This document shows, piece after piece, positions 17,336 through 58,805 of a stretch of 62,355 nucleotides of DNA. The notes beneath the pieces are model-generated. The model saw only the letters and a list, made by a program, of their open reading frames with translations, was not told where the DNA came from and searched no databases. The stretch lies in NCBI GenBank assembly GCA_963825095.1, contig CAWGRV010000008.1:1-62355 (forward strand). The letters are read 5' to 3'. The stretch comes from an uncultured Nitrosopumilaceae archaeon. GTDB lineage: Archaea > Thermoproteota > Nitrososphaeria > Nitrososphaerales > Nitrosopumilaceae. Within the stretch, counting starts at the first letter, position 1. Each line of letters starts with the position of its first letter. Position numbers and translations under genes: made by a program.

Positions 17336-17447
17336 CGCCCAGTATGCATGCGTGGAATTATTAATAAAAGAATGAAGGCGCTTAGACAGTGCATTGAGAT
17401 ATGAACATTGTATGCAAACCAATGCTCGGAACCATCGCCGCCGAGCA

Positions 17448-18953
17448 CAATGCTAGTAACTTAAGTAAATTTATTCATATTTTTTTTGATAATTTTAACA
17501 TTTTAATGGAAATGATTTCCTAAAATTTCATTTTTATAAATTTCAGAAAATTTCGCAAGAATTCTAAATTATTCATTTGGTCGGCTGTTGTACTTTCTTT
17601 CTGCAAAACATGAATACCTCCGGTAATCCGGCTGCCCATAAATTGATCATCTTATTACATTTTTATAAAAATGATAATGCATACCAATTTATGGGAAAAT
17701 AAAGATTATTTTTTTTCCACAGTGCAATACATGCGACCCTTACTACCCCATTTTGACCCCTTTGGTTTTTTCCTAATTCTCTTATGATGTCTGTTTTTTT
17801 GTATCAATGTAACGGTATCTTCTATTATTGATAATATTCTTAGGATTTTATTTATTCCCGTTTTGCGAGTATTGCCATAAAATAATGCATATAAGAGCTT
17901 CTTTACAAATTTCAGAGTATTCTTCCTGTTTATTTTATATTTATCGCAATTTATATTTTTCATAGCAATGTTTTCGAAAAAGCTATCAATAATAAAAATG
18001 AAATTATGTATAGCTATGTCCTGTTTAACTTTTCCAATTTCTTTTGATTCAATATCTTTCAAAGATAAATCATATTTAGCGTGTCTAAAATTTGTTTCGA
18101 TTTTCCATCGTTTCCAATATAAATCCATTAAAAAATTCATATCTTTATCTATCAATGTTGTTCCCAAAAAATAATCATTTCCATTAAGTTGGTATTTAAT
18201 TAGTTTCAACTTTATTAATGTTCCATCTATATTGATGTTTATTATTTTCTCTGAACAGTTACCATTTAGATGTTTTTTTACAATTGTCAGCGTTGAAACT
18301 AATCGAAATACAACATTTATGCCCTTTCCAATAAGTGTTCTAAATAATTCCTTACTAAAATAACCTCTATCCATTAATAAAACATCGCCAGGTCGAATAT
18401 ATTTTAATTGTCTTTTCAATATGAATCTTTCATCGGAAGAATCACTAATGGTATAATTGATGACCATTTCTTTATCGACATCATATAAACAACTTAACAA
18501 AGCGGTACAGTAATTTTGATTTTTGTCCAATTTAAATCCATTTTCACTAAGGGTAGCATTTAAGTTAATACCACTACCATCAACGGCAATATATCTTTTT
18601 TTATTATCTGCATATATAAAATCAATAAGTGATTGATTAAATATTTCAAAATGGGAATGATCAATATTAGATCGTTTATTAATAATGGCCGTTTTAGTTA
18701 CATTTAAAACATTCTTATATTTTAAAGACGAATTAACGATATCATAACTTAATTTCTCATTATTCTTACGGGAGAGAATATACACGATATCCTTAAAAAA
18801 AACCTTTCTCTTCCGTATCGAAGTGTAAAAATTCAAATCAGATAAAACTCGATTAATATAAATTTTAAAATTTTTAATGATTTTTATAGGGTCCATTAAA
18901 AATAATATATATAAAAAAATTAAAATTATAAAAAACTTAAGTTACCAGCATTG
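17448..18953 (-). mobile_element. IS4-family insertion sequence, copy 1 (1506 bp; 18-bp imperfect TIR CAATGCT[A/G]GTAACTTAAG)
   Basis: Left end caatgctagtaacttaag at 17448-17465; right end cttaagttaccagcattg at 18936-18953. The interior is about 99% identical to copy 2 at 40090..41595. No clean TSD here: the flanks cgccgagca and tgctgagcg are imperfect inverted GC-rich hairpin sequences. Confidence 0.8.
17706..18896 (-). CDS. IS4-family DDE transposase
   Basis: 396 aa. DDE residues lie in AVDGSG, LLMDRGY and KIETNF. LYWKRWKIETNFRHAK matches the IS4-family Y-(2)-R-(3)-E-(6)-K signature exactly. Confidence 0.85.
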   Translation of the reverse strand: MDPIKIIKNFKIYINRVLSDLNFYTSIRKRKVFFKDIVYILSRKNNEKLSYDIVNSSLKYKNVLNVTKTAIINKRSNIDHSHFEIFNQSLIDFIYADNKKRYIAVDGSGINLNATLSENGFKLDKNQNYCTALLSCLYDVDKEMVINYTISDSSDERFILKRQLKYIRPGDVLLMDRGYFSKELFRTLIGKGINVVFRLVSTLTIVKKHLNGNCSEKIININIDGTLIKLKLIKYQLNGNDYFLGTTLIDKDMNFLMDLYWKRWKIETNFRHAKYDLSLKDIESKEIGKVKQDIAIHNFIFIIDSFFENIAMKNINCDKYKINRKNTLKFVKKLLYALFYGNTRKTGINKILRILSIIEDTVTLIQKNRHHKRIRKKPKGSKWGSKGRMYCTVEKK

Positions 18954-19191
18954 TGCTGAGCGTAGGCTCAGTGAACGGAGTTCACTGGCTCCCCGAGCAA
19001 ACGAATGCAAAGTGAGCTTCAGCTCACCTTGCTGGCGCTCGATAATGCTGCGCATTCTCAAACTCCCAAAAAAGTTCGGGGAAGTTTGGCAAAAGCGAAG
19101 CTTTTGCTGAGCCGAAGGCTCAGTGAACTCCGTTCACTTGCTCGCAGAGCGAACGAATGCAAAGTGAGCTGAAGCTCACCTCGCTGGCGCT
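18954..19191. repeat. GC-rich palindromic repeat element (two partial tandem units) abutting the IS right end
   Basis: About 58% GC in a roughly 27% GC genome. Hairpins gctgagcgtaggctcagtgaacggagttcactg and gtgagcttcagctcac; a 44-bp direct repeat at 18997-19040 and 19149-19192. Related copies occur at 19757-19982, 35964-36156, 48021-48146 and 56620-56780. Confidence 0.7.
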
Positions 19192-19756
19192 CAATGCTGG
19201 TACCTTAAGGAAAAAGTATGTCAGTCTCCGAAAATATAATTGTTGTCTTCAACGACGAAAAGATCATCTCCGTCATATAAATCCGTTTCCTATCACACAT
19301 GAGTGCCACGCGATAGTACCATGCGATGGATGAATTGCATCAATTTGAATGATTCCACGCAAATAATTCCAACGCATGGTTCCTTCGCGTGAAATTCATA
19401 TTTTACTTTCTGTGACTTCCCAAAGCACTTCTGCCCTCGCCGCCATTCCTTCTTAATTTATTGTGAGGCCATTATTTGCAGTACTTTAAAGCCTCACATA
19501 AATCGCCCGCGCCAAAGGCGCATTAAGTATTTAATCCTTTTCCTATCACACATTAGTGCCGCGCGATAGTACCGTGCTTGAGATAAATTGCATAAATCCC
19601 AAGTGTTCTATGCAAAGAATTCCAATGCATGGTTCCTTCGCGCAAAATAAAAGAAAAGAACCGCTTAAAATAATGTTCATGTGTATCACTTTTAAAATGG
19701 AAAATTTCAAAAATTATTGGGCGTTTATCATACTTTTCCTTAAGGTACCAGCATTG
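19192..19756. mobile_element. MITE-like non-autonomous element (565 bp) with 19-bp perfect TIRs CAATGCTGGTACCTTAAGG and 10-bp TSD CGCTGGCGCT
   Basis: The left TIR at 19192-19210 is the exact reverse complement of 19738-19756. The flanks 19182-19191 and 19757-19766 are both cgctggcgct. The TIR differs from the IS TIR only at AAC versus ACC. The interior has no long ORF, a roughly 110-bp direct repeat (19279-19390 versus 19540-19650) and a hairpin tgtgaggc...gcctcaca. It is inserted inside a GC-rich repeat unit; the uninterrupted homologous unit is at 19021-19060. Confidence 0.65.
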
Positions 19757-19982
19757 CGCTGGCGCTCGATAATGCTGCGCATTCTCAAACTCCCAAAAAA
19801 GTTCGGGGAAGTTTGGCAAAAGCTTTGCTTTTGCTGAGCCTTCGGCTCTGTGAACTTCGTTCACTTGCTCGTAGAGCAAACGAATGCAATTCGTCGAACG
19901 GAGCGAGATAATACGCAGTATTATTATGAGTCGAGCATTAGCGAGGCGACCTTCGGTTCGCTGAAAAATTGACTCTCAGGAG
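19757..19982. repeat. GC-rich palindromic repeat element
   Basis: gcgctggcgctcgataatgctgcgcattctcaaactcccaaaaaagttcggggaagtttggcaaaagc... is nearly identical to 19030-19095. It continues with the ...gagcaaacgaatgcaa... and gagtcgagc...gagataatacgcagtattatt modules shared with the 48021 and 56620 copies. Confidence 0.65.
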
Positions 19983-20019
19983 CAATTTATTATTTCGCTC
20001 GTTAATTTTCGCAAAATAA

Positions 20020-20027
20020 AAAATTGA
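20020..20027 (+). promoter_or_regulatory. AAAATTGA early-promoter-like octamer upstream of the P450 gene
   Basis: Exact octamer 53 bp upstream of the ATG at 20080. Confidence 0.4.
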
Positions 20028-22944: not shown

Positions 22945-23460
22945 TTAAATCGCTAAACTCTTTCTGTAAAAATTCTCCAAATCTTTTTCTTTTATTTTTC
23001 TTAGTCCATTTTTTATATTCCTCATCAATTTTTCCTCTTTGTAATTATTTTCTTTCCTTCTCACCATTGATTTCAACTTCGAAAATACTTTTTCTATTGG
23101 ATTATATTCTGGCGAATATGGTACGTTGTATATTATATTGTGATTATTTTTCGCCACATATTCTTTTAATCGTTTCGTGTGATGTATTCTCGCGTTGTCC
23201 ATCAATAAATATTTATTTTCGTCAATTTTGCTTATTAACTCTTCTATGAACTTTAGAAATGTCTCGCCATTTGCCGAATCTTTTATTATCTTTGTATGCA
23301 ATATTTTTCTGTTTGAAATCGCACATATCAGAGTGTATCTTTTGAAGTGTTTAAAGTATTTTTTTAATATCATTTTTTTGCCTTTTTCCGACCAACCGTA
23401 ATTATTTGCAATTCTATTATCAAAATGCGTTTCATCTATTGATATTATATTTCCCTGCAC
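22945..23460 (-). pseudogene. Tc1/mariner (IS630-like, DDE_3) transposase, catalytic-domain-only fragment
   Basis: 171 aa: DETHF...GWSEKG...LICAIS...LLMDNARIHH...YNVPYSPEYNPIEKVFSKLK is the classic DD(34)E catalytic core. The N-terminal HTH DNA-binding domain is missing, because upstream is occupied by an HNH gene. Confidence 0.7.
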
Positions 23461-23505
23461 TCCTTTCAGGAGTTTCGCTGAGCGAAGCGAACGAGTTCGC
23501 CTAAA

Positions 23506-23961
23506 TTATTTAAAATTCGAATAATTTCTCTTATTATATTTTGCTCTATTCTCTATTTTCCATAAAGGTTGTAAATTTCGAAAATTGAAACACTCAAAAA
23601 TATTTTGTTTTATAGAGAAATCAAATGAAGAAACAGGAATAATATGGTCTATTTCCCATTCTCCATAATTTTTAAAATTCATACCTTCGATAAGCAAATC
23701 AAAAATGTGTTTTTCTAATTCCTGAATAGAACAACCAATTATTTCCTGATAGGAATTGTTGAGGATTAAATTGTTATCCTTGTATATCTTATAGATCCTA
23801 TTTTTAATATTATCATAGATTTTAAAAAATCCGCCTTTATTTCTCTGATTTTTTGCTTTTTGAATAAGTTTCTTTTTAATTCTTTTTTGTTTATATTAGT
23901 CTTTATAAAAGAGTGTTATTTTTTCAGAAATGTATGCCTGTTTATTGAATTCTTCACTCAT
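23506..23961 (-). pseudogene. HNH endonuclease, apparently frameshifted
   Basis: The C-terminal reading frame ...GMNFKNYGEWEIDHIIPVSSFDFSIKQNIFECFNFRNLQPLWKIENRAKYNK carries an HNH motif. That frame extends upstream without an ATG, to a TAA at about 23890. An ATG at 23961 opens a different frame, MSEEFNKQAYISEKITLFYKD*, so an N-terminal piece and a C-terminal piece sit in different frames. Confidence 0.5.
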
Positions 23962-23978: not shown

Positions 23979-24254
23979 CTTTTATTTAAATATAAAGAAA
24001 ATTTCAAATTTATAGCGAAGTTTACTTCGCCGAGCAAAGCGAGACGCCAGAGGCGTGCATGGAAAGCAGAAGAAATTTGTTTAAGACATGGCTTGCTACG
24101 TTGCGAAAACGTTCATAATGGCGAACCAAAAAAACAAATTTTAATGAACCGAGATTTCAATGCGGCAATGAATATATTAAGAAAAGCAAAATGCATATTG
24201 AAGAATTTGCCAATACCAGAATATTTGCAAAGGAAAAAAGAAAGAAAAGATTAA
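23979..24254 (+). pseudogene. TnpB/Fanzor-like (IS200/IS605 OrfB) C-terminal relic
   Basis: An open frame with no start codon encodes ...AWKAEEICLRHGLLRCENVHNGEPKKQILMNRDFNAAMNILRKAKC.... The (D/N)RDxNAAxNIL motif is characteristic of TnpB/Fanzor RuvC-III C-termini. Only about 90 codons remain. It overlaps a GC-rich hairpin at 24005-24060. Confidence 0.5.
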
Positions 24255-35963: not shown

Positions 35964-36156
35964 ATCGCTCGGCAAAAGCTTTGCTTTCGCCCGCGTAAAG
36001 CGAGGTAAGCAGTTGCTGCTTGACGAACTTTGTTCGCTTATCAAGATGTTAGTTTCTTTACCAAGCAGCACCGTCGGTGATCTCGCTCTGTTCGGCAGCT
36101 ACGCTGCATTTCAGGATTTTATTTGACCAGCATTGTGCTCGGCGAACATAATTCGC
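35964..36156. repeat. GC-rich palindromic repeat element with solo IS-end-like motif
   Basis: cgctcggcaaaagctttgctttcgcc (compare gctcagcaaaagctttgcttttgc elsewhere), ...accagcattgtgctcggcgaacataattcgccg at 36126-36156. The motif accagcattg|tgctSRgcg is the same junction seen at the IS copy 1 right end (18944-18962). Confidence 0.5.
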
Positions 36157-36220
36157 CGTTTAGTTTCTTTATTAAATTCAAAATCCACTAAATAATTTTC
36201 AGTATATAAATATAATAAAA

Positions 36221-38050: not shown

Positions 38051-40089
38051 ATGAAATATTTCGCTTATATAAATATAATCAAAATGGATGAATCAGAGGA
38101 ATCCCAGAGAAATGATTTCAAAAATGATCAAATCGAAAATGAAATAGAAATTACGCCGTTGCAAATATACCGTAAATATGAGGTGAATAAAAAAGAAAAG
38201 GGATCCAAAAAACACAAACATCATAAAATGTGCAAAAGTGAGAAAAAATCCGGAGACTCGAGAAAAAAAAAATATTTAATTGGGCCAACTGGTCCTAGCG
38301 GCCCAACAGGCCACATTGGTCCAACCGGTCCAACTGGTAAAAACGGTCTGGGAATTACTGGCGCGACTGGATCGATCGGACCAACCGGTACAGAGTTAAC
38401 CTTGCCGAATATAGCATCCCTCAGGGCAACTGCTCCTAATTCGAGTTTGGAATCACTTGTTGTCGAAGGATATTACATTCCCGGGGATGGAGGTGGTGGT
38501 ACATTTTTTTATGATTCTACTGATGTAATAACCCCGGATAACGGGGGAACAGTAATCGTCGCATCTGGCTCATCTGACCCAACTGCAAGATGGAAAAGAA
38601 TTTATGTTCCGAGAAACATATCAGCAAAATGGTTTGGTGCAAAAGGAGACGGAGCCACAGATGACACCATCGCTTTGACAAATTGTTTAGATCTGGCTCA
38701 GAACCTGAATGGAGCCTCCATATATCTGCCTTCTGGAATTTATGTTATTTCGGAGACATTGAATGTAACAGTTTCGAATGTAAGCATTAAAGGTGATGGG
38801 CATCCCGTATGGACAGACGTCAATCCAGATCAAGACTATACTTGTATCAGTTGGAATGGGGCGAGCGGAGCAGCGATGCTTTCAGTATCGGCAATAGAAG
38901 GGCCGAGTAATGATGTTATAAGCTGCGTCGATGTAATCGGAGTGGGATTCTTGGGCAATGGAACAGCTGCCTACGGAATTGCAATTGGCTCGCAATGGTA
39001 TGGTAAATATGATGTTTATATAGAAAATTGTACGATAGCCCTCTTTTATACTTATTGCCTCGCCCAATTAGCCAAACATTGTGATGTACAAATGTTGGAT
39101 GTTTTATTAAATGGTAAACAGATTAGTGGAACAGGTGCGGGATTATTGTTGACCGGGAATGCTGAAAGTTTGCCGGCAGGCTCGGACACTTCGCTTTGTA
39201 TTTTCAGGCATGTGAGTGTGTTAATCGGCGAAAATAATACCGGAGTGATTTTAGGTAACACCGATCACAATTTATTTTTAATTCTAGCGACGCCACCAAA
39301 GACAGCCACAACCGGTCCAAGTGTTGTCTTTCAAGCGGCTGCAACGGGCCAAGAACCGGCGCGTTACAATCTCATAATTGAATTGGCTAGCGGAAAGGGA
39401 CAAGTAGTAGCTCAGGGAACGGAAACACAAGTCAATCCCTCTAATGGAAATATTATTCAATATATCAACTTCGTAGGAGCCGCATTGCCCTCTATTGGCA
39501 CCGGGGCCGACTTAGCTTGGGGTTCAGATAATAATATTTTCGGTCCGCGCGGATTTTTCGGAGTAGCGATTGCGGATCAATTCGGCACTGCGAGAACGGC
39601 TTACGATGCATTAACTACTGAATCTTTGAGAGTGGCTAATGGAATGAGTAACCATATTATCTTATCGAATCCGCCAAATACCGTAAATTGGAGTGTGAAT
39701 ATAGAAAATTCCAATGGTGAAATGAGAATGTACAGTACAACTAACCCAACTGAACCATTAGTCGTGAGTAATCCAATGGCCGCGGCATCACCAGTCGTTT
39801 TCGCGTCATCCGCTGATCTTTCTCATGAAATATCAGCCGCCGGTACTGAAACATTACGCCTAAATAATTCATCTAGTAATCATTTATTGTTGACAGCTAA
39901 TACGCACGATGCGGATCAATGGGGAATGAATATCGACGGATCAGGAAATTTAAATTTCACTCATCCGGCCGGGACGGGTACTGGAAGTTTTACCGGGGAT
40001 ATGACATTTAACAATCAATTAACAGTTACTGATAATTTCAATCCGCAGAGTAAAACCATATTTGGTGCCACTGCAAGTCCAGCACCGCA
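38051..40089 (+). pseudogene. collagen-like/beta-helix fibre protein, 5' part, disrupted by IS4-family insertion
   Basis: Same architecture as 36221..37984: K/H-rich leader, GPTG repeats, LRATAPNSSLESLVVEGYYIPGDGGGGTFFY...AKWFGAKGDGATDDTIAL. The native frame runs into the IS at 40090. The annotated ORF end (40165, ...HNASNLSKFIHIFFDNFNILMEMIS) is IS-encoded read-through. Confidence 0.75.
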
Positions 40090-41595
40090 CAATGCTAGTA
40101 ACTTAAGTAAATTTATTCATATTTTTTTTGATAATTTTAACATTTTAATGGAAATGATTTCCTAAAATTTCATTTTTATAAATTTCAGAAAATTTCGCAC
40201 GAATTCTAAATTATTCATTTGGTCGGCTGTTGTACTTTCTTTCTGCAAAACATGAATACCTCCGGTAATCCGGCTGCCCATAAATTGATCATCTTATTAC
40301 ATTTTTATAAAAATGATAATGCATACCAATTTATGGGAAAATAAAGATTATTTTTTTTCCACAGTGCAATACATGCGACCCTTACTACCCCATTTTGACC
40401 CCTTTGGTTTTTTCCTAATTCTCTTATGATGTCTGTTTTTTTGTATCAATGTAACGGTATCTTCTATTATTGATAATATTCTTAGGATTTTATTTATTCC
40501 CGTTTTGCGAGTATTGCCATAAAATAATGCATATAAGAGCTTCTTTACAAATTTCAGACTATTCTTCCTGTTTATTTTATATTTATCGCAATTTATATTT
40601 TTCATAGCAATGTTTTCGAAAAAGCTATCAATAATAAAAATGAAATTATGTATAGCTATATCCTGTTTAACTTTTCCAATTTCTTTTGATTCAATATCTT
40701 TCAAAGATAAATCATATTTAGCGTGTCTAAAATTTGTTTCGATTTTCCATCGTTTCCAATATAAATCCATTAAAAAATTCATATCTTTATCTATCAATGT
40801 TGTTCCCAAAAAATAATCATTTCCATTAAGTTGGTATTTAATTAGTTTCAACTTTATTAATGTTCCATCTATATTAATGTTTATTATTTTCTCCGAACAG
40901 TTACCATTTAGATGTTTTTTTACAATTGTTAGCGTTGAAACTAATCGAAATACAACATTTATGCCCTTTCCAATAAGTGTTCTAAATAATTCCTTACTAA
41001 AATAACCTCTATCCATTAATAAAACATCGCCAGGTCGAATATATTTTAATTGTCTTTTCAATATGAATCTTTCATCGGAAGAATCACTAATGGTATAATT
41101 GATGACCATTTCTTTATCAACATCATATAAACAACTTAACAAAGCGGTACAGTAATTTTGATTTTTGTCCAATTTAAATCCATTTTCACTAAGGGTCGCA
41201 TTTAAGTTAATACCACTACCATCAACGGCAATATATCTTTTTTTATTATCTGCATATATAAAATCAAGAAGTGATTGATTAAATATTTCAAAATGGGAAT
41301 GATCAATATTAGATCGTTTATTAATAATGGCCGTTTTAGTTACATTCAAAACATTCTTATATTTTAAAGACGAATTAACGATATCATAACTTAATTTCTC
41401 ATTATTCTTACGGGAGAGAATATACACGATATCCTTAAAAGAAACCTTTCTCTTCCGTATCGAAGTGTAAAAATTCAAATCAGATAAAACTCGATTAATA
41501 TAAATTTTAAAATTTTTAATGATTTTTATAGGGTCCATTAAAAATAATATATATAAAAAAATTAAAATTATAAAAAACTTAAGTTACCAGCATTG
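40090..41595 (-). mobile_element. IS4-family insertion sequence, copy 2, with 9-bp target-site duplication AGCACCGCA
   Basis: TIRs at 40090-40107 and 41578-41595. The direct repeat agcaccgca lies at 40081-40089 and 41596-41604. It is inserted inside the collagen/beta-helix gene. Confidence 0.85.
40348..41538 (-). CDS. IS4-family DDE transposase (copy 2)
   Basis: 396 aa, differing from copy 1 at 3 residues (F33S, I-to-L, T-to-S); same YREK signature. Confidence 0.85.
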   Translation of the reverse strand: MDPIKIIKNFKIYINRVLSDLNFYTSIRKRKVSFKDIVYILSRKNNEKLSYDIVNSSLKYKNVLNVTKTAIINKRSNIDHSHFEIFNQSLLDFIYADNKKRYIAVDGSGINLNATLSENGFKLDKNQNYCTALLSCLYDVDKEMVINYTISDSSDERFILKRQLKYIRPGDVLLMDRGYFSKELFRTLIGKGINVVFRLVSTLTIVKKHLNGNCSEKIININIDGTLIKLKLIKYQLNGNDYFLGTTLIDKDMNFLMDLYWKRWKIETNFRHAKYDLSLKDIESKEIGKVKQDIAIHNFIFIIDSFFENIAMKNINCDKYKINRKNSLKFVKKLLYALFYGNTRKTGINKILRILSIIEDTVTLIQKNRHHKRIRKKPKGSKWGSKGRMYCTVEKK

Positions 41596-41893
41596 AGCAC
41601 CGCAAGCTTTTGGAAATATAACAGCAAATGGCGTAATTGGAGTTTTGACTTTCAACGGTCTAAATCAGGCAGCCGGGTCAACAACATCAGCCACTGTCAC
41701 AAATTCATTTGCTGATGCAAATAGTTTTATCTTTTTGACAATACAGAGTTACACAGGAACATATTTTATAAATGGTTATCCTAAGTTTGAAATAGGCGGT
41801 AAGAGTGCGGGCAGCTTTACACTTATCTTAAACAATACTGGAACAACAGCATTAAGCGGCACAGTTGAAGTCGCTTATCAATTATTGAATTAA
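41596..41893 (+). pseudogene. 3' part of the IS-disrupted collagen/beta-helix gene
   Basis: Reading in the 38051 frame, across one copy of the TSD, gives ...SPAP-QAFGNITANGVIGVLTFNGLNQAAGSTTSATV...AYQLLN* with no frameshift. The track ORF 41645..41893 begins at an in-frame TTG. Confidence 0.7.
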
Positions 41894-46638: not shown

Positions 46639-47967
46639 TTAAAATTTATAGACGTAAGTTGTTCCATTATTAAAGGTGGTCGGGGTCGGAACATCAAAAT
46701 AGGGCAAATAGTAGGCAAAATTTGTATTTTCACCAATTACGAGTCTTCTTTCGGACGAAGATAAGGCAGCCCCGAAGAAATCCAGCTGATGGGGATTTGG
46801 ATTCAATAGCGTGGTTAGGTATGTCCATTGATTGTGGCAAAGTTTATAAATCTCGACGCTTCCAACGTGTTTCATTGTCCCATCCAATGAACTGTTATTA
46901 TTTGTAATGAAGATATATTCTTCGTGTAGAACCAAGTTCGTTCCAAATGCTCCTTGAAGAGCTGGAACTTGCGGATAAATCTTTGTAACAAATTGCCAAT
47001 TTCTGACACCATTATTCTCATAGGCACTGTAAATATATACTGCACCGGCCAAGAAAACGGCTTGTGGATTTGTACTGTCGAGCGGAGCGCCAATTATAGC
47101 CCAATCCTTATTGAATTCGATCCTGAATCCGAACAAATCACCAATACCCTCCGGGCTGGGCGGCGGAGGGCTATTTCCCCTTAATAATTCGACAAATTCC
47201 CATTGACCGCTATAATCATTTAATTTATAGAAATAGGCGTAACCATTATCTGGCGGGTTGGACCCAAATTGTGTGTAATTACCTTCGGCCGTGATGAAGG
47301 CATACTTACCGCGAACGAAGCAAGCACCACCAATTGCCTGATTGAAAATCGGACCAGTGGGACTCGTAATTTTTTGGGTTAATGTCCAAAGGCTACCTAT
47401 TAAGCGGAAGACGTAAACGTTCCCAGCCAAGGGAACCCCTTCTATTTGATTCTGAGGAGCCCCGATAAAGGCCCACTCATCATTGAAATCCATATATTGA
47501 CCACCAAATTCGATTCCATAAGTTACGCTGTCGTAAACATAAGTAGGGGGATCGTTGGGTAGCAAAGTTTGTTTTAAATTCCATTGTCCGTTGCAAAGAT
47601 AAAAGACTAAAACAGCACCACCAGGATGCGGGTCGGGGCCCGGACCTCCAGATACTTTAGAGCCAAAAGAGCACATCGCCCATTTGTCGTCGATTTTGAG
47701 CGAATTGAATGCCCCAGGGACATCGCTAGACAATAGCTCTGAAAAAGGAGCTTGTGATTCAATAAATTGATCATGATGCTCATTGTAAAAGATTAGAGCA
47801 CCGGCATTGGAGACTGAATCAACCGTGGCATTTTGGGCCGTAATGGCAAGATTATGCGAATCTACAGATACGGCTGCCCCAAAACCATCTCCCAAAGTGG
47901 TATCGCCAACAACACTTCCCGGTAAAGGTGAAGCCATCGTTTGAATTAGTGTAAATTGTTCAGACAT
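46639..47967 (-). CDS. FG-GAP repeat (integrin-alpha-like beta-propeller) protein
   Basis: Repeated FG-x(n)-D-x-IGAP-x(n)-G-x-VY motifs (FGGQYMDFNDEWAFIGAPQN...GNVYVF, FGFRIEFNKDWAIIGAPLDS...GAVYIYS). Paralog of 48162..49511. Confidence 0.6.
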   Translation of the reverse strand: MSEQFTLIQTMASPLPGSVVGDTTLGDGFGAAVSVDSHNLAITAQNATVDSVSNAGALIFYNEHHDQFIESQAPFSELLSSDVPGAFNSLKIDDKWAMCSFGSKVSGGPGPDPHPGGAVLVFYLCNGQWNLKQTLLPNDPPTYVYDSVTYGIEFGGQYMDFNDEWAFIGAPQNQIEGVPLAGNVYVFRLIGSLWTLTQKITSPTGPIFNQAIGGACFVRGKYAFITAEGNYTQFGSNPPDNGYAYFYKLNDYSGQWEFVELLRGNSPPPPSPEGIGDLFGFRIEFNKDWAIIGAPLDSTNPQAVFLAGAVYIYSAYENNGVRNWQFVTKIYPQVPALQGAFGTNLVLHEEYIFITNNNSSLDGTMKHVGSVEIYKLCHNQWTYLTTLLNPNPHQLDFFGAALSSSERRLVIGENTNFAYYLPYFDVPTPTTFNNGTTYVYKF

Positions 47968-48020
47968 TACTATAGTAGTAAATAAGATTTTTATTCAATT
48001 TGTGGATGTGAAATTTCAAT

Positions 48021-48146
48021 AATATTGCGTATTATCTCGCTTCGCTCGACTCATTACATTCGTTTTCTCGGAGAGCAAGTGAACAGAGTTCACTGAGCCT
48101 ACGGCTCAGCAAAAGCTTTGCTTTTGCGCAATGCTTAGCATTGCCG
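48021..48146. repeat. GC-rich palindromic repeat element (reverse orientation) between the FG-GAP paralogs
   Basis: Reverse complement of the 19822-19930 and 56700-56780 modules (gagtcgagcgaagcgagataatacgcaatatt; ctcagtgaactctgttcacttgctc; gctcagcaaaagctttgcttttgc). It ends with the mini-palindrome caatgcttagcattg at 48120-48134. Confidence 0.65.
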
Positions 48147-48161
48147 AACATGTTGACTTAT

Positions 48162-49511
48162 TTAATATTTGTAAACATAGGTGTTTCCATTATTAAAAGT
48201 AGTCGGTACGGGCACGTCAGTATACGGCAGATAATAAGAGAAATTGGGATTCTCACCAATTACAAGTCTATTCTGGGACGCAGATAAGTCTCCGCCGAAG
48301 AAATCTAATTGATGAGGATTAGGGTTTAATATGGTGGTAAGATAGGTCCATTGGCCATTGCAAAGCTTATAAACTTCAACGGATCCGACATGTTTCATGG
48401 TACCATCTGATGAACTGTTGTTATTTGTAATGAAGATATAGTCTTCGTATAGAACCAAATTTGTTCCAAATGCTCCTTGAACGGCTGGATTTTGAGGATA
48501 CAGCTTTGTGACAAATTGCCAATTAGTGACTCCTTTATTATTATACGCACTGTAAATATACACTGCACCGGCGATAAAAACACCTTGCGGGTTTGTATTG
48601 TCGAGTGGGGCTCCGATAACGGCCCAATTGTTATTAAATTCAATTCTGAATCCAAATAAATCACCAATGCCATTTGGGCTGGGCGGCAGAGGACTGTTTC
48701 CTCTCAATAGTTCGACGAATTCCCACTGATTTGTGTGTTGGTTTAATTGATAGAAGTAAGCATAACCGTTATCGGGAGGATTAGAACCGAATTGTGTATA
48801 GTTACCTTCCGCGGTAATAAAGGCATAATTACCATTTATATAAGAAGCCCCTCCGATAGATTGATTGAAAATCGGCCCAGTTGGACTTGTGATCTTTTGG
48901 GTTAATTGCCATTTTTCGTTCTCCAGATGAAAAACGGATACATTTCCAGCCAAGGGTACACCGTCTATCTGATTTTGTGGAGCGCCTATAAAAGCCCAAT
49001 CACCATCAAAATCCAAATATTGACCTCCGAATTCAATTCCGTAAGTGAAATTATTATAAACATAAGTGGGAGGATCACTTGGTAATAGAGTTTGAACCAA
49101 ATTCCACTGATTACCTTCGAGTTTAAAAACCAGTACGCAACCGCCCGGATGTGCAGCGGGGCCGGGACCTCCAGAGACTTTTGCACCAAATCCTCCCATC
49201 GCCAGACATCCTTGAATTTTAAGGGCGTTAAATGCGCCCGGGACATCGCTAGTAAGTAATTCTGAGAATGGCGGCTGAGACTGTGAAAACTGATTGTGCT
49301 TCTGAGTGTAGAAGAGTAAAGCCCCAGTATTGGAAATAGAATCAACAGTGGCATTCTGAGCAGAGACAACTAACTGATCACCGTCTATGGAGACAGCGGA
49401 GCCGAAACCGTCGCCCAAGGTTGTGGTACCCACAACGCTACCCGGCAAAGGAGAACTAAGAGTTTGAAGGAGTACGAATTGTTCAGACATTTCTATAATG
49501 TTAGGGAACAA
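48162..49511 (-). CDS. FG-GAP repeat (integrin-alpha-like beta-propeller) protein
   Basis: 449 aa, about 75% identical to 46639..47967. Confidence 0.6.
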   Translation of the reverse strand: MFPNIIEMSEQFVLLQTLSSPLPGSVVGTTTLGDGFGSAVSIDGDQLVVSAQNATVDSISNTGALLFYTQKHNQFSQSQPPFSELLTSDVPGAFNALKIQGCLAMGGFGAKVSGGPGPAAHPGGCVLVFKLEGNQWNLVQTLLPSDPPTYVYNNFTYGIEFGGQYLDFDGDWAFIGAPQNQIDGVPLAGNVSVFHLENEKWQLTQKITSPTGPIFNQSIGGASYINGNYAFITAEGNYTQFGSNPPDNGYAYFYQLNQHTNQWEFVELLRGNSPLPPSPNGIGDLFGFRIEFNNNWAVIGAPLDNTNPQGVFIAGAVYIYSAYNNKGVTNWQFVTKLYPQNPAVQGAFGTNLVLYEDYIFITNNNSSSDGTMKHVGSVEVYKLCNGQWTYLTTILNPNPHQLDFFGGDLSASQNRLVIGENPNFSYYLPYTDVPVPTTFNNGNTYVYKY

Positions 49512-50283: not shown

Positions 50284-50343
50284 TTGAAATATAAGTTTTA
50301 TTTATTCACTTATTTGAAATAATATGAAATTAAAAAAAATCAA

Positions 50344-50489
50344 TTTTCAGATTATTATCGCAATCCTCAATCCTATTTTGAATCTTTCTCGTAAACTCGC
50401 AAGATTAAAAATTGAATTTTCAGATTATTATCTTAATCCTCAATCCTATTTTGAATCTTTCTCGTAAACTCGCAAGATTAAAAATTGAA
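50344..50489. repeat. 73-bp perfect-ish tandem duplication (2 units), each carrying AAAATTGA
   Basis: Units are 50344-50416 and 50417-50489: ttttcagattattatc[g/t][c/t]aatcctcaatcctattttgaatctttctcgtaaactcgcaagattaaaaattgaa. They lie immediately upstream of the small ORF 50538..50723. Confidence 0.8.
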
Positions 50490-56547: not shown

Positions 56548-56619
56548 TTTTAGAAATCAGCTATTGTGAATGAACAATTGTGAATGAAATTATTTTAGAC
56601 AAAAGGAATTTCAATATTT

Positions 56620-56780
56620 CAGTGAGCTTCAGCTCACCTCGCGTATGCTCGACTCACGATGTTCGTTTGCTCAGGAAGCCAGTGAATGTTGTTCACTGAG
56701 CGATAGCGAAACGCACGAAGTGTGTGCCGAGTAAACGAATGTAATGAGTCGAGCGGAGCGAGATAATGCGCAGCATTATT
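56620..56780. repeat. GC-rich palindromic repeat element
   Basis: cagtgagcttcagctcacctcgc; cagtgaatgttgttcactgagcg; gtaaacgaatgtaatgagtcgagcggagcgagataatgcgcagcattatt. The same modules occur at 18954-19190, 19757-19982 and 48021-48146. Confidence 0.65.
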
Positions 56781-56782
56781 GA

Positions 56783-56790
56783 AAAATTGA
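56783..56790 (+). promoter_or_regulatory. AAAATTGA octamer upstream of 56844
   Basis: Exact octamer 54 bp upstream of the ATG at 56844, directly after the GC-rich repeat. Confidence 0.4.
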
Positions 56791-56843: not shown

Positions 56844-58665
56844 ATGGGGCCCTTTGTAGTTTTCTTTTTAATATTCACCACGGTAGCGACATCCTCTCAA
56901 TGGATCAAGATAGAAAATTACAATATTAAAAAAACAAATGATGGTTCGAAATGTTCTATTATTGTTCGTGAATCAGAATTGATTGGAAGAAACAACATTT
57001 GCTCGTCGAAAATTACTTTTCACATCGCCCTTAAGCAAAATGAAATTGGTGTTCGACAATTGGAAAATTATATTTTGAATTCTGCGAGCAACATTGACTC
57101 GGAATATTATGGTCAATATTTATCAATTAGCGCCATCAGTGATTTAGTATCGCCCCCAAAGAGAGAAGCTGATTTGGTACTTCAGTGGCTTAATAAGAAT
57201 AACATTTTCGATTGCCAGAATTTCGGTGATTCCATAAAATGTTCAGGGAGAAATCAAAGATGTGGAACTTTTATTCGAAAATCAGGTTAATTTATACCTG
57301 AATGTTAATAAAAAAATATTAATCTATAAATCTGATCAAAATTACGTATTCCCGAAGCATTTGGAAAACATTATAGAATTCGTTGATGGCATTTCGAATC
57401 CTTTAATAGATTTTCCCGTCAAAAATTAAATGTCAAATCCACTTCTGAACCTGACCCCGGCGCCTTCACGAGAGAAGTCATGCAAAGGCTTTATAATATG
57501 ACAGATACTTATGTCTATGTGAACTCGAGTGTTGGAGCGATGGAATTTATGGGCCCCGAAGGATTTTCCAACAGAGATTTATCAAAAAGTCAACAGGCAA
57601 ATGGAATAACCATAAACAAAATTCGGAATATTATAGGTTACAATAATCCATTTCCTGATACTGAAAGTGAATTAGATGTGCAAGTGATGTGTTGGGCGGC
57701 GACGAATGCGAGTTTGTGGTACGATCATGAAAATGGTTGGATATATGCTTGGGCCATTAGTACGTTTAACAGAGAAACAATTCCGGAGGTACTTTCTTAG
57801 TTGGGGCTGGGATGAAACGCAACAGTGTAGCCTTTTTAATTGTTCAGGAAATATTAATAATACAATGTCATATGTAAAAAGATGCGATGTCGAATTATTA
57901 AAAATCACCGCACGGGGAAGTACAATTTTAGTTGCTTCAGGAGATGCTGGTTCTCCGGATAGAACTAATGAAATGTGTTAAATAAGAAAAAGGTCCATAT
58001 GGGTGGACTGCCATGAATCCTATATTTCCGGGAGATTCCCGTATGTCCTGAGCGTCGGAGCAACTTATATAGTTGAAGGAAGAAGCATCATCGTTCAATT
58101 ACTCGACGCCAATTTGTACTCATGTTTTTGGTTGTGCGAACGGAACCCAGGAAAATGGCGTTGAATATGACGTTGTAAACTGGACGACAGGTGGAGGTTT
58201 CGCGCATTGGAATGAAAGGCCAACATGGCAAGAGAAACAAGTTAATATTTATTTAGAATCAGGAATAGCATTACCGAATTGCACGTATTTCAATGCGTCC
58301 AATAGAGCATATCCTGATGTTTCAGCAGTTGGACACAATTGCGCGATTTATGAATTAGGTTGGGAATTTGTCGATGGTACATCGTGTTCAACTCCCGTTT
58401 TTGCAGGTATTATCACTAATTTGAATAGTTTCCAGAAACAAAGAGGAAAACCGATATTGGGGTTTGCCAATCCTTTATTGTATAAATGTATCTAGAAAGT
58501 CCCAATACATTTAATGATGTGACGCTAGGAACTACAGCCTGCACAGAATTCAAATGTTGTGGACAAGATTTTGGTTTTTTGGCGAATCAAGCATGGGATC
58601 CGGTTGGCGGTTTAGGCACACCGAATGTAGAGAATATGAAGAATTATTTGGTCCAAAATACCTAA
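56844..58665 (+). pseudogene. sedolisin / tripeptidyl-peptidase (S53) family gene broken into 5 or more pieces
   Basis: The pro-domain piece is 56844..57290: signal peptide, ...YYGQYLSISAISDLVSPPKREADLVLQWLNKNNIF. The catalytic pieces are: 57480..57800 (ESELDVQ); 57706..57981 (SWGWDETQQC...VASGDAGS); 58073..58495 (GGGFAHWNERPTWQ...PDVSAVG...DGTSCSTPVFAGI); and 58510..58665 (FNDVTLG...GFLANQAWDPVGGLGTPN). The pieces lie in frames 0, 0, 1, 2 and 1, with an in-frame stop between the first two. Confidence 0.65.
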
Positions 58666-58805
58666 ATTGAGACTTCGAATATTGCATATTCTGCATCCTA
58701 ATTCTTTATTTATTCACTCGGTTCATAAATAAAAAATTGAGACTTCGAATATTGCATATTCTGCATCCTAATTCTTTATTTATTCACTCGGTTCATAAAT
58801 AAAAA
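58666..58805. repeat. 70-bp tandem duplication (2 units)
   Basis: attgagacttcgaatattgcatattctgcatcctaattctttatttattcactcggttcataaataaaaa at 58666-58735 and again at 58736-58805, immediately after the sedolisin pseudogene stop. Confidence 0.8.

What the first reader, a model, noticed from the sequence alone, without database searches (positions are those of the whole stretch)
18954..19982. Family of GC-rich, hairpin-dense intergenic repeats scattered through an AT-rich genome
Six or more loci share modules absent from coding DNA: (i) gctgagc-N-ggctcagtgaacNgagttcactg, a perfect hairpin cagtgaac/gttcactg; (ii) gcRaacgaatgcaaagtgagctKMagctcacctYgctggcgctc; (iii) gataatgctgcgcattctcaaactcccaaaaaagttcggggaagtttggcaaaagc; (iv) gagtcgagcRgagcgagataatRcgcagYattatt; and (v) gctcagcaaaagctttgcttttgc. 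The loci are 17415-17447, 18954-19191, 19757-19982, 35964-36156, 48021-48146 (inverted) and 56620-56780; short related hairpins occur at 23463-23500 and 24005-24060. They are about 55-60% GC against roughly 27% background. They occur in both orientations, always intergenic, and often next to mobile-element ends: they flank IS copy 1 on both sides, host the MITE, and abut the Tc1/mariner-HNH-TnpB remnants. They could be a second MITE-like family, preferred IS target sites, or structured regulatory or non-coding RNA elements such as transcript 3'-end hairpins. Spurious small ORFs 18877..19110 and 19556..19837 share the peptide RSIMLRILKLPKKFGEVWQK only because of the repeat.
Basis: seen in the sequence. 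Interest (0 to 1): 0.7.

Follow-up and report, generated by a model that had tools for sequence, protein, structure and literature searches.

The report
Hairpin repeats tied to HNH element
The GC-rich hairpin repeats scattered between genes of this AT-rich giant-virus contig are real, and they are built from the same sequence modules that form the inverted ends of a small HNH-endonuclease mobile element found in several giant viruses, so they are most likely endonuclease-less relics or derivatives of that selfish element rather than ordinary gene-regulation signals.

Summary
The repeats exist. By sequence, four loci are homologous: 18954-19982, 48014-48146 (inverted), 56611-56790 and, weakly, 35964-36160. 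The first is a 152-bp tandem array of about 2.4 units, split by a 565-bp MITE. The contig is Mimiviridae-like.

Differences between copies sit mostly in hairpin loops, several of which are exactly reverse-complemented, while the stems are kept. All loci carry a 12-nt signature, GAGCGAAGCGAG (7 hits against 1.1 expected), which is usually followed by a stem-loop of arbitrary sequence.

The two short hairpin sites at 23459-23505 and 24010-24062 flank an HNH-endonuclease pseudogene. Intact homologues in nine other viral contigs, including Hyperionvirus, are bracketed by GC-rich inverted repeats of 18-147 nt. Seven of these carry the signature: TCGCTTCGCTCAG upstream and CTGAGCGAAGCGA downstream. 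Two copies at unrelated loci share the whole unit. Nineteen related Mimiviridae loci and 80 bacterial loci lack it.

Loops are enriched for C-GNA-G, the very stable DNA mini-hairpin, equally on both strands. This points to a DNA-level role, not an RNA one.

Best reading: these are non-autonomous or solo-end derivatives of an HNH mobile element. They resemble mitochondrial GC clusters or REP elements, which is new for giant viruses. Mobility and nuclease specificity are inferred. No target-site duplication or empty site was found.

The parts
18954..19191 (+). Left part of the GC-rich hairpin array: unit 1 (152 bp) plus the first 86 bp of unit 2. Contains hairpins CTGAGC/GCTCAG, CAGTGAAC/GTTCACTG, GTGAGC/GCTCAC and GCAAAAGC/GCTTTTGC.
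   Evidence: (D18)
19192..19756 (.). A nested 565-bp MITE, not a member of the hairpin family. Its TIR CAATGCTGGTACCTTAAGG matches the IS4-like IS ends. Its 10-bp TSD CGCTGGCGCT lies at 19182-19191 and 19757-19766.
   Evidence: (I22)
19767..19990 (+). Right part of the array: the rest of unit 2, then unit 3, which diverges after about 57 nt into a signature-plus-hairpin module (GAACGGAGCGAG at 19896, then ATAATAC-GCA-GTATTAT). It ends in a palindromic tail, TAGCGAGGCGACC-TTCG-GTTCGCTG, followed by AAAATTGA at 19965-19972.
48014..48146 (-). Inverted copy, 84-95% identical to the array over 55-110 nt. It carries an exact signature at 48036-48047 on the minus strand. It lies 16 nt after the stop of gene 48162-49511(-) and upstream of gene 46639-47967(-).
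   Evidence: (I1-I4)
56611..56790 (+). A copy of about 175 bp that is one long imperfect palindrome, lying between divergent genes. The left arm contains CTCGCGTATGCTCGAC. The right arm contains GTCGAGCGGAGCGAG (signature at 56751) followed by the hairpin ATAATGC-GCA-GCATTAT. Nested inner arms are present. The outer ends read TCAATATTTCA and TGAAAAATTGA.
   Evidence: (I3, I6)
35964..36160 (+). Degenerate relative. It contains GCAAAAGC-TTT-GCTTTCGC, CGAAC-TTT-GTTCGCTTA (a 14-nt match to the HNH-element TIR of L117), degenerate signatures at 35993 and 36083, and a solo IS-end remnant ACCAGCATTG at 36126-36135.
23459..23505 (.). GC-rich hairpins with the signature (GAGCGAAGCGAA at 23480), immediately 3' of the HNH pseudogene. 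The signature segment is inverted relative to the canonical right end seen in L096 and L117.
23506..23961 (-). HNH endonuclease pseudogene of about 151 codons with one in-frame stop. It is 48-50% identical to the intact 161-aa HNH ORF of L003.
24010..24062 (.). 5' flank of the HNH pseudogene: hairpin GCGAAG-TTTA-CTTCGC, signature GAGCAAAGCGAG (24032), then hairpin ACGCC-AGA-GGCGT. It matches the corresponding flank of the Hyperionvirus HNH element over 37 nt at 86% identity, including a compensatory change in the stem.
17448..18953 (-). IS4-like insertion sequence, copy 1 (DDE_Tnp_1 transposase, 396 aa). It abuts the array and has no TSD. It is context only, not a family member. Copy 2 at 40090-41595 has a 9-bp TSD AGCACCGCA.

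Best explanation
The repeats are a family of short GC-rich palindromic DNA modules. They belong to, and are most likely derived from, the inverted termini of a small mobile element of about 0.6-1.2 kb that carries a free-standing HNH endonuclease gene and lives in Mimiviridae-like giant viruses.

**Structure of a full element.** Each end is a conserved 12-13-nt signature next to stem-loops of arbitrary sequence.
- The upstream end carries TCGCTTCGCTCAG.
- Next come an early-type promoter and the HNH gene.
- The downstream end carries CTGAGCGAAGCGA(G).

**What this window holds.**
- One decayed element: the HNH pseudogene at 23506-23961 with signature and hairpin flanks.
- Four HNH-less clusters at 19k, 36k, 48k and 56k. 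These are solo ends or internally deleted, MITE-like derivatives.

**Inferred steps.**
- The nuclease recognises the signature plus an extruded DNA hairpin.
- The breaks it makes are repaired by recombination with other copies. This spreads and reshuffles modules, and no target-site duplication results.
- Palindromy then drives loop inversions, tandem amplification (the 152-bp array) and inversions between copies.
- The clusters also attract the GC-preferring IS4-like IS and its MITE.
For: **Shown in this window**
- The copies are homologous and dispersed, in both orientations.
- They enlarge otherwise short spacers. The 48k and 56k spacers are 194 and 296 nt, and about 61 and 116 nt without the element. 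Typical spacers are 4-150 nt.
- The signature GAGCGAAGCGAG occurs 7 times at up to 2 mismatches, against 1.08 expected. Five hits are in the hairpin loci, including both flanks of the HNH pseudogene.
- Between array units 1 and 2, 11 of 15 substitutions lie in hairpin loops. Two loops are exact reverse complements (GGA/TCC, TTCA/TGAA) and the stems are intact.

**Shown in related loci**
- The window HNH is 48-50% identical to an intact ORF in L003, which is flanked by 147-nt GC-rich inverted repeats.
- Nine further HNH loci have GC-rich inverted repeats or hairpins at both ends: L003, L072, L093 (Hyperionvirus), L095, L096, L117, L118, L120 and L088. Seven carry the signature. It is always the L form upstream. 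The R form lies downstream, degenerate in L093 and L118.
- L096 and L117 share the whole unit, including the outer hairpins, but have unrelated flanks.
- The signature is followed within 0-3 nt by a perfect stem of at least 5 bp in 20 of 29 cases, against 8.3% at random positions. The stems all differ.
- Window modules match HNH-element TIRs of other viruses. Examples are a 17-nt exact match to L003, a 37-nt match at 86% to Hyperionvirus, and 13-14-nt matches to L096 and L117.
- The modules are absent from 19 Rpb1-syntenic loci of other Mimiviridae.
- They are also absent from 80 bacterial or archaeal loci with distant HNH homologues.
- More distant viral HNH homologues lack the signature.
- A 35-nt GC-rich hairpin is inserted inside the HNH motif in L088.
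- Of 88 triloops in the clusters, 45 are GNA or TNC, against 11.7% in controls. Thirty-four are closed by C-G, and the two polarities are equal at 22 and 23.
- The signature contains GCGAAGC, the very stable DNA mini-hairpin described in PMC13037366 and PMC3201870.
- The HNH protein matches the PHROG family named 'endonuclease VII' at E 1e-8.
Against: - No target-site duplication and no clean filled-versus-empty site was found for any copy. Mobility of the HNH-less clusters is therefore inferred from distribution, not demonstrated.
- HNH nucleases are not known transposases, and nothing here shows that this one cuts the signature or a hairpin.
- The window's own HNH is a pseudogene, and its two flanks carry the signature in direct, not inverted, orientation.
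- Much of the 152-bp unit has no counterpart in any HNH-element end examined. An example is ...CGATAATGCTGCGCATTCTCAAACTCCCAAAAAAGTTCGGGGAAGTTTG.
- The loci found through GCTCAGTGAACNNNGTTCAC were selected by that pattern, so that shared hairpin alone is weak evidence.
- L120 has long GC-rich TIRs but no signature within one mismatch.
- The opposite causality is not fully excluded. The hairpin clusters could be older, with HNH genes homing into them.
Confidence: 0.6

Rival explanations
1. They are the virus's own transcription-termination and polyadenylation hairpins (the Mimiviridae 'hairpin rule'). They look similar because of duplication or gene conversion between spacers, and any link with HNH genes is secondary.
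For: - The contig uses the Mimiviridae early promoter AAAATTGA, and hairpin-dependent 3'-end formation is a family trait (PMC6163669, PMC5871332, PMC4402537).
- The 19k, 36k and 48k copies lie downstream of a gene on the same strand, and the non-palindromic parts keep the same orientation relative to transcription.
- In L011, L018 and L030 related clusters start right after stop codons, and in L030 they follow both genes of a convergent pair.
- Gene 48162-49511(-) has no other 3' hairpin.
Against: - The 56k copy lies between divergent genes, with no 3' end nearby.
- Other genes in the window use AT-rich, unique palindromes at the stop codon, or show none under the criteria used.
- Nineteen related Mimiviridae loci have no such modules.
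- Loop motifs have no strand polarity and match stable DNA loops, not stable RNA loops.
- Identity of 85-95% between distant spacers indicates recent copying.
- The modules travel with the HNH gene between unrelated loci.
Confidence: 0.15
2. They are cis-acting DNA signals of the virus itself, such as replication-initiation, recombination or cruciform sites. They are maintained by selection, and mobile DNA (HNH, IS, MITE) merely accumulates at them.
For: - C-GNA-G mini-hairpins are enriched on both strands, and stems are conserved while loops flip.
- Mobile elements cluster at these sites.
- A gene block bracketed by inverted clusters in L003 is inverted in its relative L098.
Against: - The distribution among related viruses is patchy. 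There are none in 19 syntenic loci, including a relative with 72% Rpb1 identity.
- Copy structure is highly variable and reshuffled.
- The same modules form the ends of a unit found at unrelated loci.
- An essential signal would be expected in all relatives and at conserved positions.
Confidence: 0.08
3. They are products or targets of the IS4-like IS and MITE family in the same window: excision footprints, decayed ends or preferred insertion sites. They have no connection with the HNH gene.
For: - The MITE sits in the array and IS copy 1 abuts it.
- The hairpin GCAATGC-TTA-GCATTGC at 48128-48144 equals two abutted IS termini.
- ACCAGCATTG at 36126 is a solo IS end, and CAATGCTCGG occurs at 17422.
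Against: - Apart from those short motifs, the clusters share nothing with the IS or MITE ends.
- The IS makes 9-10-bp TSDs, and the clusters have none.
- Related clusters occur in other viruses, where the fetched loci show no such IS.
- The IS-related traces are better explained as nested insertions into GC-rich targets.
Confidence: 0.05
4. They encode small structured non-coding RNAs.
For: Folding energies are strong, for example -86 kcal/mol for 201 nt at the 56k locus. A compensatory change preserves the ATAATAC/GTATTAT stem as ATAATGC/GCATTAT.
Against: - There is no Rfam match.
- Module order is reshuffled between copies, and loops are reverse-complemented rather than conserved.
- Loop motifs have no strand polarity.
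- No promoter precedes any copy consistently.
Confidence: 0.03

Closest known systems
Mobile palindromic GC clusters of yeast and other fungal mitochondrial genomes (e.g. GC42; PMC4478555)
   Same: - Short GC-rich palindromic modules lie in the spacers of a very AT-rich, compact genome.
- Their distribution among relatives is sporadic, and copies occur in both orientations.
- Modules diversify rapidly and show 'merger and shuffling' into composite clusters.
- No transposase is encoded within the module.
- Occasional insertion into coding sequence occurs (here L088).
   Different: - The host is a giant virus, not an organelle.
- The putative target-site duplication reported for mitochondrial clusters was not seen here.
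- Here the modules carry a conserved 12-nt signature and form the inverted ends of an HNH-endonuclease gene.
- No sequence relationship with the mitochondrial clusters was tested.
REP/BIME elements and their RAYT (Y1) transposases in bacteria
   Same: The logic is the same: a short conserved motif sits next to an imperfect palindrome of variable sequence. Units occur singly, in inverted pairs and in arrays. A single protein gene is flanked by inverted copies of the units it is thought to act on.
   Different: - The associated protein is an HNH (beta-beta-alpha-Me) nuclease, not an IS200/IS605-type Y1 transposase.
- The signature differs from the REP GTAG motif.
- The host is a eukaryotic virus.
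- The comparison rests on general knowledge. Only the motif-plus-hairpin syntax was measured here.
Free-standing HNH homing endonuclease genes of phages and giant viruses
   Same: This is a small HNH ORF inserted between unrelated genes, with its own promoter. Its phyletic distribution is patchy, and distant homologues occur in phage and bacterial contigs.
   Different: Classical free-standing homing endonuclease genes have no terminal inverted repeats and leave no families of gene-less repeats. This subfamily is bracketed by 18-147-nt GC-rich inverted repeats carrying a fixed signature.
MITEs of giant viruses (Pandoravirus 'submariner', pithovirus M1/M2 repeats) and the IS4-derived MITE in this window
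   Same: These are short, non-coding, multicopy elements, partly with inverted ends, that lie in spacers. They are related through their ends to a longer protein-coding element.
   Different: There is no TSD and no DDE transposase partner. The structure is modular and reshuffled rather than a fixed consensus. The real MITE in this window (19192-19756) shows the contrast, with clean TIRs and a 10-bp TSD. The comparison with Pandoravirus and pithovirus repeats is from memory and was not tested.
Mimiviridae 'hairpin rule' 3'-end palindromes
   Same: These are hairpin-forming sequences between genes of a Mimiviridae-like genome. Some copies lie directly after stop codons.
   Different: Hairpin-rule palindromes in this window are AT-rich and unique to each gene. 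The repeats here are GC-rich, multicopy, shared between viruses, absent from most relatives, and also present between divergent genes.

Membership tests
MITE (non-autonomous class II transposon) | Terminal inverted repeats bounding each copy | tested here: inconclusive
   The 56k copy is a long imperfect palindrome with matching outer ends (I6, 30). The 48k copy, the 36k copy and the 19k array have no clear TIR pair.
MITE (non-autonomous class II transposon) | Target-site duplication of fixed length | tested here: not met
   No TSD was seen at the HNH-less copies, apart from a possible 4-bp GAAT at 56k that is within chance. None was seen at the boundaries of the full HNH elements L093, L096 and L117.
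MITE (non-autonomous class II transposon) | Ends shared with an autonomous element that encodes a transposase | tested here: inconclusive
   The ends are shared with a protein-coding element. However, the protein is an HNH nuclease, not a known transposase.
Palindromic GC-cluster mobile DNA (mitochondrial type) | Short GC-rich palindromes dispersed in the spacers of an AT-rich genome, in both orientations | tested here: met
Palindromic GC-cluster mobile DNA (mitochondrial type) | Sporadic presence among close relatives (presence/absence polymorphism) | tested here: inconclusive
   The modules are absent from 19 related Mimiviridae loci, including a relative with 72% Rpb1 identity. No strain-level filled-versus-empty pair was available for this virus.
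Palindromic GC-cluster mobile DNA (mitochondrial type) | Merger and shuffling of modules into new clusters | tested here: met
   The order and orientation of shared modules differ between the 19k, 48k and 56k copies and between viruses.
REP/RAYT-like system | Conserved short motif adjacent to a variable palindrome | tested here: met
   In 20 of 29 signature instances a perfect stem of at least 5 bp follows within 0-3 nt, against 8.3% at random positions. All the stems differ.
REP/RAYT-like system | Associated Y1 (IS200/IS605-type TnpA) transposase flanked by the repeats | tested here: not met
   The flanked gene is an HNH nuclease. Only a TnpB remnant lies nearby, and no Y1 gene was seen.
Free-standing HNH homing endonuclease gene | HNH catalytic motif in a small stand-alone ORF between unrelated genes | tested here: met
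   - The motif EIDHI.P...NLQPLW..EN..K is conserved in 30 homologues.
- Matches are Pfam HNH_4 (weak) and PHROG 'endonuclease VII' at E 1e-8.
- The predicted model has pLDDT 88, and its only weak fold matches include HNH domains.
Free-standing HNH homing endonuclease gene | Cleavage of the cognate empty site and copying by repair | not testable with these tools
   This needs biochemistry or co-infection genetics.
Mimiviridae hairpin-rule terminators | Palindrome coincides with the polyadenylation site at the 3' end of a gene | not testable with these tools
   No transcript data are available. By position, three loci are compatible and one (56k, between divergent genes) is not.
IS200/IS605-type element ends | Subterminal hairpins flanking tnpA/tnpB | tested here: not met
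   Only a C-terminal TnpB remnant at 23997-24254 abuts one hairpin site. The hairpin modules flank the HNH gene in ten loci, only two of which have a TnpB fragment nearby.

The most novel reading that the evidence does not exclude
This is a previously undescribed class of giant-virus mobile element. A minimal HNH nuclease recognises a 12-nt motif containing the ultra-stable GCGAAGC DNA mini-hairpin, together with an adjacent extruded stem-loop. That logic resembles REP/RAYT or IS200, but uses a different enzyme fold. The nuclease thereby mobilises both itself and a cloud of gene-less hairpin modules. These modules colonise spacers, occasionally land in coding sequence, seed inversions and tandem arrays, and create GC-rich landing pads for other transposons in otherwise AT-rich Mimiviridae genomes.
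Probability: 0.3. Interest if true: 0.8.

Novelty: new variant of a known kind. Interest (0 to 1): 0.66.

Why it matters
The known mobilome of giant viruses consists of virophages, transpovirons, IS607-type and other IS elements, introns and inteins, and a few MITE families. No description of an HNH gene bracketed by signature-bearing hairpin repeats, or of GC-cluster-like repeats in Mimiviridae, was found in the searchable literature.

- It gives a concrete, testable candidate for how palindromic 'GC clusters' spread. That question is still open even for mitochondria. The candidate is a defined nuclease acting on a defined motif-plus-hairpin substrate.
- It explains several practical observations:
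  - assemblies of this virus break at these sites;
  - most HNH homologues sit on contigs of 1-3 kb, which is what assembly breaks at repeats would produce;
  - spurious ORFs are called across the repeats;
  - IS elements pile up at them.
- It flags the clusters as likely drivers of inversions and tandem duplications in giant-virus genomes.

Tried and rejected
- **Rfam and tRNA scans.** Scans of the whole window found nothing.
- **Exact-pattern scans of IMG/VR.**
  - Two window modules gave no hits.
  - A third pattern returned mostly chance or unrelated hits. Some were AT-rich contigs with their own GC clusters. One was a 56-bp tandem repeat in a giant-virus MAG.
- **Metagenome scan.** It returned 44 loci, of which only 5 (L011, L016, L018, L027, L030) were AT-rich relatives. 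The rest were chance matches in GC-normal DNA.
- **Insertion boundaries.** I aligned the spacer after gene 46639-47967 with the one after its tandem paralogue 48162-49511. Homology stops at the stop codon.
- **Other contigs of the same genome.** Look-ups through the IS transposase gave only a 1.6-kb Logan contig. Two look-ups were 'not on record'.
- **Structure and sequence searches for the HNH protein.**
  - The profile search against PDB sequences gave only an insignificant hit to T7 endonuclease I (E 0.6).
  - Foldseek against the PDB gave nothing below E 0.6.
  - The 'structure-specific nuclease' idea therefore rests only on a PHROG family name.
- **TSD searches.** Searches at the boundaries of L093, L096, L117 and the window copies were negative.
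- **PgV-MIGE.** This is the known multicopy element of PgV and CeV (PMC4669402). It could not be compared because the describing paper is not held.
- **Promoter donation.** I considered that the clusters donate the AAAATTGA promoter to downstream genes, because the motif abuts the element end at 19965 and 56783. The motif cannot be assigned to the element rather than the flank, so this is left as an observation.
Full report
**1. Context**

The window is a complete 62,355-bp public contig held by NCBI and ENA. Overall GC is 34%, and ordinary intergenic spacers are 15-30% GC and mostly 4-150 nt long.

The contig looks like a Mimiviridae-type giant virus.
- The early-promoter octamer AAAATTGA occurs 37 times, against 21.6 expected, and typically sits 50-65 nt upstream of start codons.
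- Genes include collagen-like and beta-helix proteins, ankyrin/F-box, BTB, a protein kinase and a P450.
- No tRNA and no Rfam family is present.
- The same virus is present in at least two other public sequencing runs. Their assemblies break at these repeats.

**2. The observation**

blastn of each claimed locus against the window and the repeat finder show real homology among four places:
- 18954-19191 plus 19757-19982;
- 48014-48146, which is inverted;
- 56611-56790;
- 35964-36160, which shares only 17-21-nt matches.

The main matches are as follows.

| Match | Length | Identity | E-value |
|---|---|---|---|
| 19031-19162 vs 19758-19889 | 132 nt | 92% | 1e-48 |
| 19089-19143 vs 48073-48127 | 55 nt | 95% | 2e-19 |
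| 19827-19925 vs 48018-48116 | 99 nt | 85% | 6e-17 |
| 48014-48071 vs 56727-56784 | 58 nt | 91% | 1e-16 |

Other points on the observation:
- 17415-17447, 23463-23500 and 24005-24060 give no significant match to the others in that blastn search.
- Seventeen of the window's 28 GC-rich perfect hairpins (stem at least 6, loop 3-5) fall in the 1.8% of the window covered by these loci.

**3. Anatomy of the main locus**

A 565-bp MITE (19192-19756) sits inside the cluster. Its terminal repeats are those of the IS4-like IS in this window, and it has a 10-bp duplication CGCTGGCGCT. With the MITE and one duplication copy removed, the cluster is a head-to-tail array with a period of 152 bp.
- Units 1 and 2 are complete.
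- Unit 3 follows the pattern for about 57 nt and then changes into another module.
- That module ends ...GAACGGAGCGAG-ATAATAC-GCA-GTATTAT....
- A palindromic tail and an AAAATTGA at 19965 follow it.

Units 1 and 2 differ by 15 substitutions. Eleven lie in the roughly 17 loop nucleotides of the five hairpins. Two loops are exact reverse complements (GGA/TCC and TTCA/TGAA) and a third is nearly so (GAA/TTT). The stems are unchanged.

The same pattern is seen between loci. GAA pairs with TTC, TTT with AAA, and GCA with TGC. One stem differs by a compensatory pair, ATAATAC/GTATTAT against ATAATGC/GCATTAT. The hairpin, not the primary sequence, is what persists.

**4. The lead that changed the interpretation**

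A scan for GCTCAGTGAACNNNGTTCAC found related hairpin strings in other AT-rich viral and metagenomic contigs.

In one of them, L003, two hairpin clusters form 147-nt inverted repeats that are 86% complementary. They bracket a 161-codon ORF. That ORF is an HNH endonuclease.

It is 48-50% identical to a pseudogene in the window at 23506-23961 on the minus strand, which has one in-frame stop.

**5. Testing the association**

Homologues of this HNH were collected from viral contigs and from the large protein database. The database search gave 195 proteins at E <= 1e-8, including Hyperionvirus1_185, and most sit on contigs of 1-3 kb.

Contexts were read for nine further loci. All have GC-rich hairpins at both ends. 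Measured inverted repeats are as follows.

| Locus | Inverted-repeat length |
|---|---|
| L072 | 18 nt |
| L093 (Hyperionvirus) | 35 nt |
| L096 | 38 nt |
| L120 | about 105 nt |
| L095 | 115 nt |
| L003 | 147 nt |

Seven loci carry a common signature. It reads TCGCTTCGCTCAG upstream of the gene and CTGAGCGAAGCGA(G) downstream, always in that arrangement. The downstream copy is degenerate in L093 and L118.

L096 and L117 share the whole unit but have unrelated flanks. This shows the hairpin ends travel with the gene. No target-site duplication is visible. The shared unit consists of, in order:
- an outer hairpin;
- the signature;
- an inner repeat;
- an AAAATTGA promoter;
- the HNH gene;
- an inner repeat;
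- the signature;
- an outer hairpin.

Three sets of loci lack the signature:
- more distant HNH homologues in viral contigs;
- 80 bacterial or archaeal loci;
- 19 loci of other Mimiviridae syntenic with L003's RNA polymerase gene, including a relative at 72% amino-acid identity. These also lack the hairpin clusters.

**6. Linking the HNH ends to the window's repeats**

The signature GAGCGAAGCGAG, at up to 2 mismatches, occurs 7 times in the window against 1.08 expected. Five hits are in the hairpin loci: 19896, 23480, 24032, 48036 (minus strand) and 56751.

Across the window and ten related loci, 20 of 29 signature instances are followed within 0-3 nt by a perfect stem of at least 5 bp. The figure at random positions is 8.3%. 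The stem sequences all differ.

Other modules are shared too:
- a 17-nt exact match between 48034-48050 and L003;
- a 37-nt, 86% match between the window HNH's 5' flank and the Hyperionvirus element, including a compensatory stem change;
- 13-14-nt matches of the array and the 36k locus to the inner repeats of L096 and L117.

The 56k copy has the full-element topology. It has left-type and right-type arms with nested inner arms, but only about 90 nt where the gene would be.

**7. DNA or RNA?**

Among 88 triloop hairpins in the clusters of the window and 12 related loci, 45 have GNA or its complement TNC. The control rate is 11.7%. Thirty-four of the 45 are closed by C-G, and the two polarities are equally frequent at 22 and 23.

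C-GNA-G is the very stable DNA mini-hairpin, and the signature itself contains GCGAAGC, the prototype of that motif (PMC13037366, PMC3201870). The lack of strand polarity, together with the loop flips, favours structures formed by DNA on either strand. It does not favour a transcript feature.

**8. Position relative to genes**

- The clusters account for the excess length of their spacers.
- Three lie between tandem genes, and their non-palindromic parts keep the same orientation relative to transcription.
- The 56k copy lies between divergent genes.
- Ordinary 3'-end palindromes in this window are AT-rich and unique to each gene.
- A secondary role as terminators is possible for some copies but cannot explain the family.

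**9. Interpretation**

The best-supported explanation (confidence about 0.6) is that the repeats are gene-less derivatives or solo ends of an HNH-endonuclease mobile element family. They are kept and reshuffled at the DNA level.

*Shown:*
- homology and dispersal of the copies;
- the signature-plus-hairpin syntax;
- its specific association with one HNH subfamily;
- movement of the whole unit between loci;
- patchy distribution among relatives.

*Inferred:*
- the HNH cuts at the signature or hairpin;
- spread is by break repair;
- the gene-less clusters are mobilised in trans rather than left behind by deletion.

*Weak points:*
- there is no TSD and no empty site;
- the window's own copy is a pseudogene;
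- much of the 152-bp unit has no counterpart elsewhere.

**10. Comparison with known systems**

- The closest analogue in behaviour is the mobile palindromic GC cluster of AT-rich mitochondrial genomes (PMC4478555).
- The closest in logic is REP/RAYT, which also pairs a motif with a variable palindrome and a flanked gene.
- The protein belongs with free-standing HNH homing endonucleases, which normally lack inverted ends.
- The family fails strict MITE membership (no TSD, no transposase) and REP/RAYT membership (no Y1 enzyme).
- I found no description of such an element in giant viruses.
- PgV-MIGE could not be compared.
- I therefore rate this a new variant of a known kind.

Noticed in passing
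17448-18953 and 40090-41595: There are two copies of a 1506-bp IS4-like IS (DDE_Tnp_1, 396 aa) that differ at 11 positions. Copy 2 splits a collagen/beta-helix gene (38051-40165 continuing at 41645-41893) and has a 9-bp TSD AGCACCGCA. Copy 1 has no TSD (flanks CGCCGAGCA / TGCTGAGCG), which suggests recombination between IS copies.
   Followed up: partly
48128-48144; 36126-36135; 17422-17435: Three short traces of the IS/MITE ends lie inside or beside the hairpin loci. The hairpin GCAATGC-TTA-GCATTGC equals two abutted IS termini. ACCAGCATTG is a solo right end. CAATGCTCGGAACC is a degenerate left end. They could be excision footprints or old nested insertions.
   Followed up: no
22945-23460(-), 23997-24254(+); L118 238-2237: The HNH pseudogene sits between a DDE_3 (Tc1/IS630-type) transposase fragment and a TnpB C-terminal remnant. 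In L118 an intact HNH element lies between a 305-aa ORF and a TnpB C-terminal fragment (Cas12f1-like TNB). HNH elements may insert into, or co-localise with, TnpB elements.
   Followed up: partly
L088 and L089, 1566-1600: In a giant-virus MAG (GVMAG-M-3300010334-28), a 35-nt GC-rich hairpin sequence is inserted between NYGEW and EIDH of the HNH motif. It breaks the reading frame. This is a direct case of a mini-hairpin landing in coding DNA.
   Followed up: partly
L003 6590-8435 vs L098 6294-7716: In L003 a two-gene block is bracketed by inverted hairpin clusters. The same block is in the opposite orientation in the nearest relative (Rpb1 72% identical), which has no clusters. This is compatible with an inversion by recombination between the clusters.
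   Followed up: partly
19965-19972, 56783-56790; L003 9172-9180: An AAAATTGA or AAAAGTTGA promoter-like motif directly abuts the outer end of several clusters and faces the neighbouring gene. The P450 gene has a second AAAATTGA at 20020. It is unclear whether the elements carry outward promoters.
   Followed up: partly
56844-58650: A sedolisin (kumamolisin-type) protease gene appears fragmented into several ORFs. The pro-domain is at 56844-57290, followed by further pieces up to about 58650. It lies just downstream of the 56k hairpin copy.
   Followed up: no
50334-50479 and 58664-58803: There are two AT-rich two-copy tandem repeats, of 73 bp (95% identical) and 70 bp (100% identical). They are unrelated to the hairpin family.
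   Followed up: no
L048, L050, L051, L054, L058, L059, L064 (IMG/VR contigs): These very AT-rich contigs (23-27% GC) are filed as viral. They carry their own GC-rich clusters (e.g. GGCGCCCCGGCCCC...) next to a chance match to one window module. They resemble organellar DNA with GC clusters rather than relatives of this virus.
   Followed up: no
L056 94-334: A 56-bp tandem repeat with at least 5 copies lies at the end of a giant-virus MAG contig (GVMAG-M-3300023174-43). It contains CGAATGYAATGAGCCGA, a motif also present in the window's modules and in L027.
   Followed up: no
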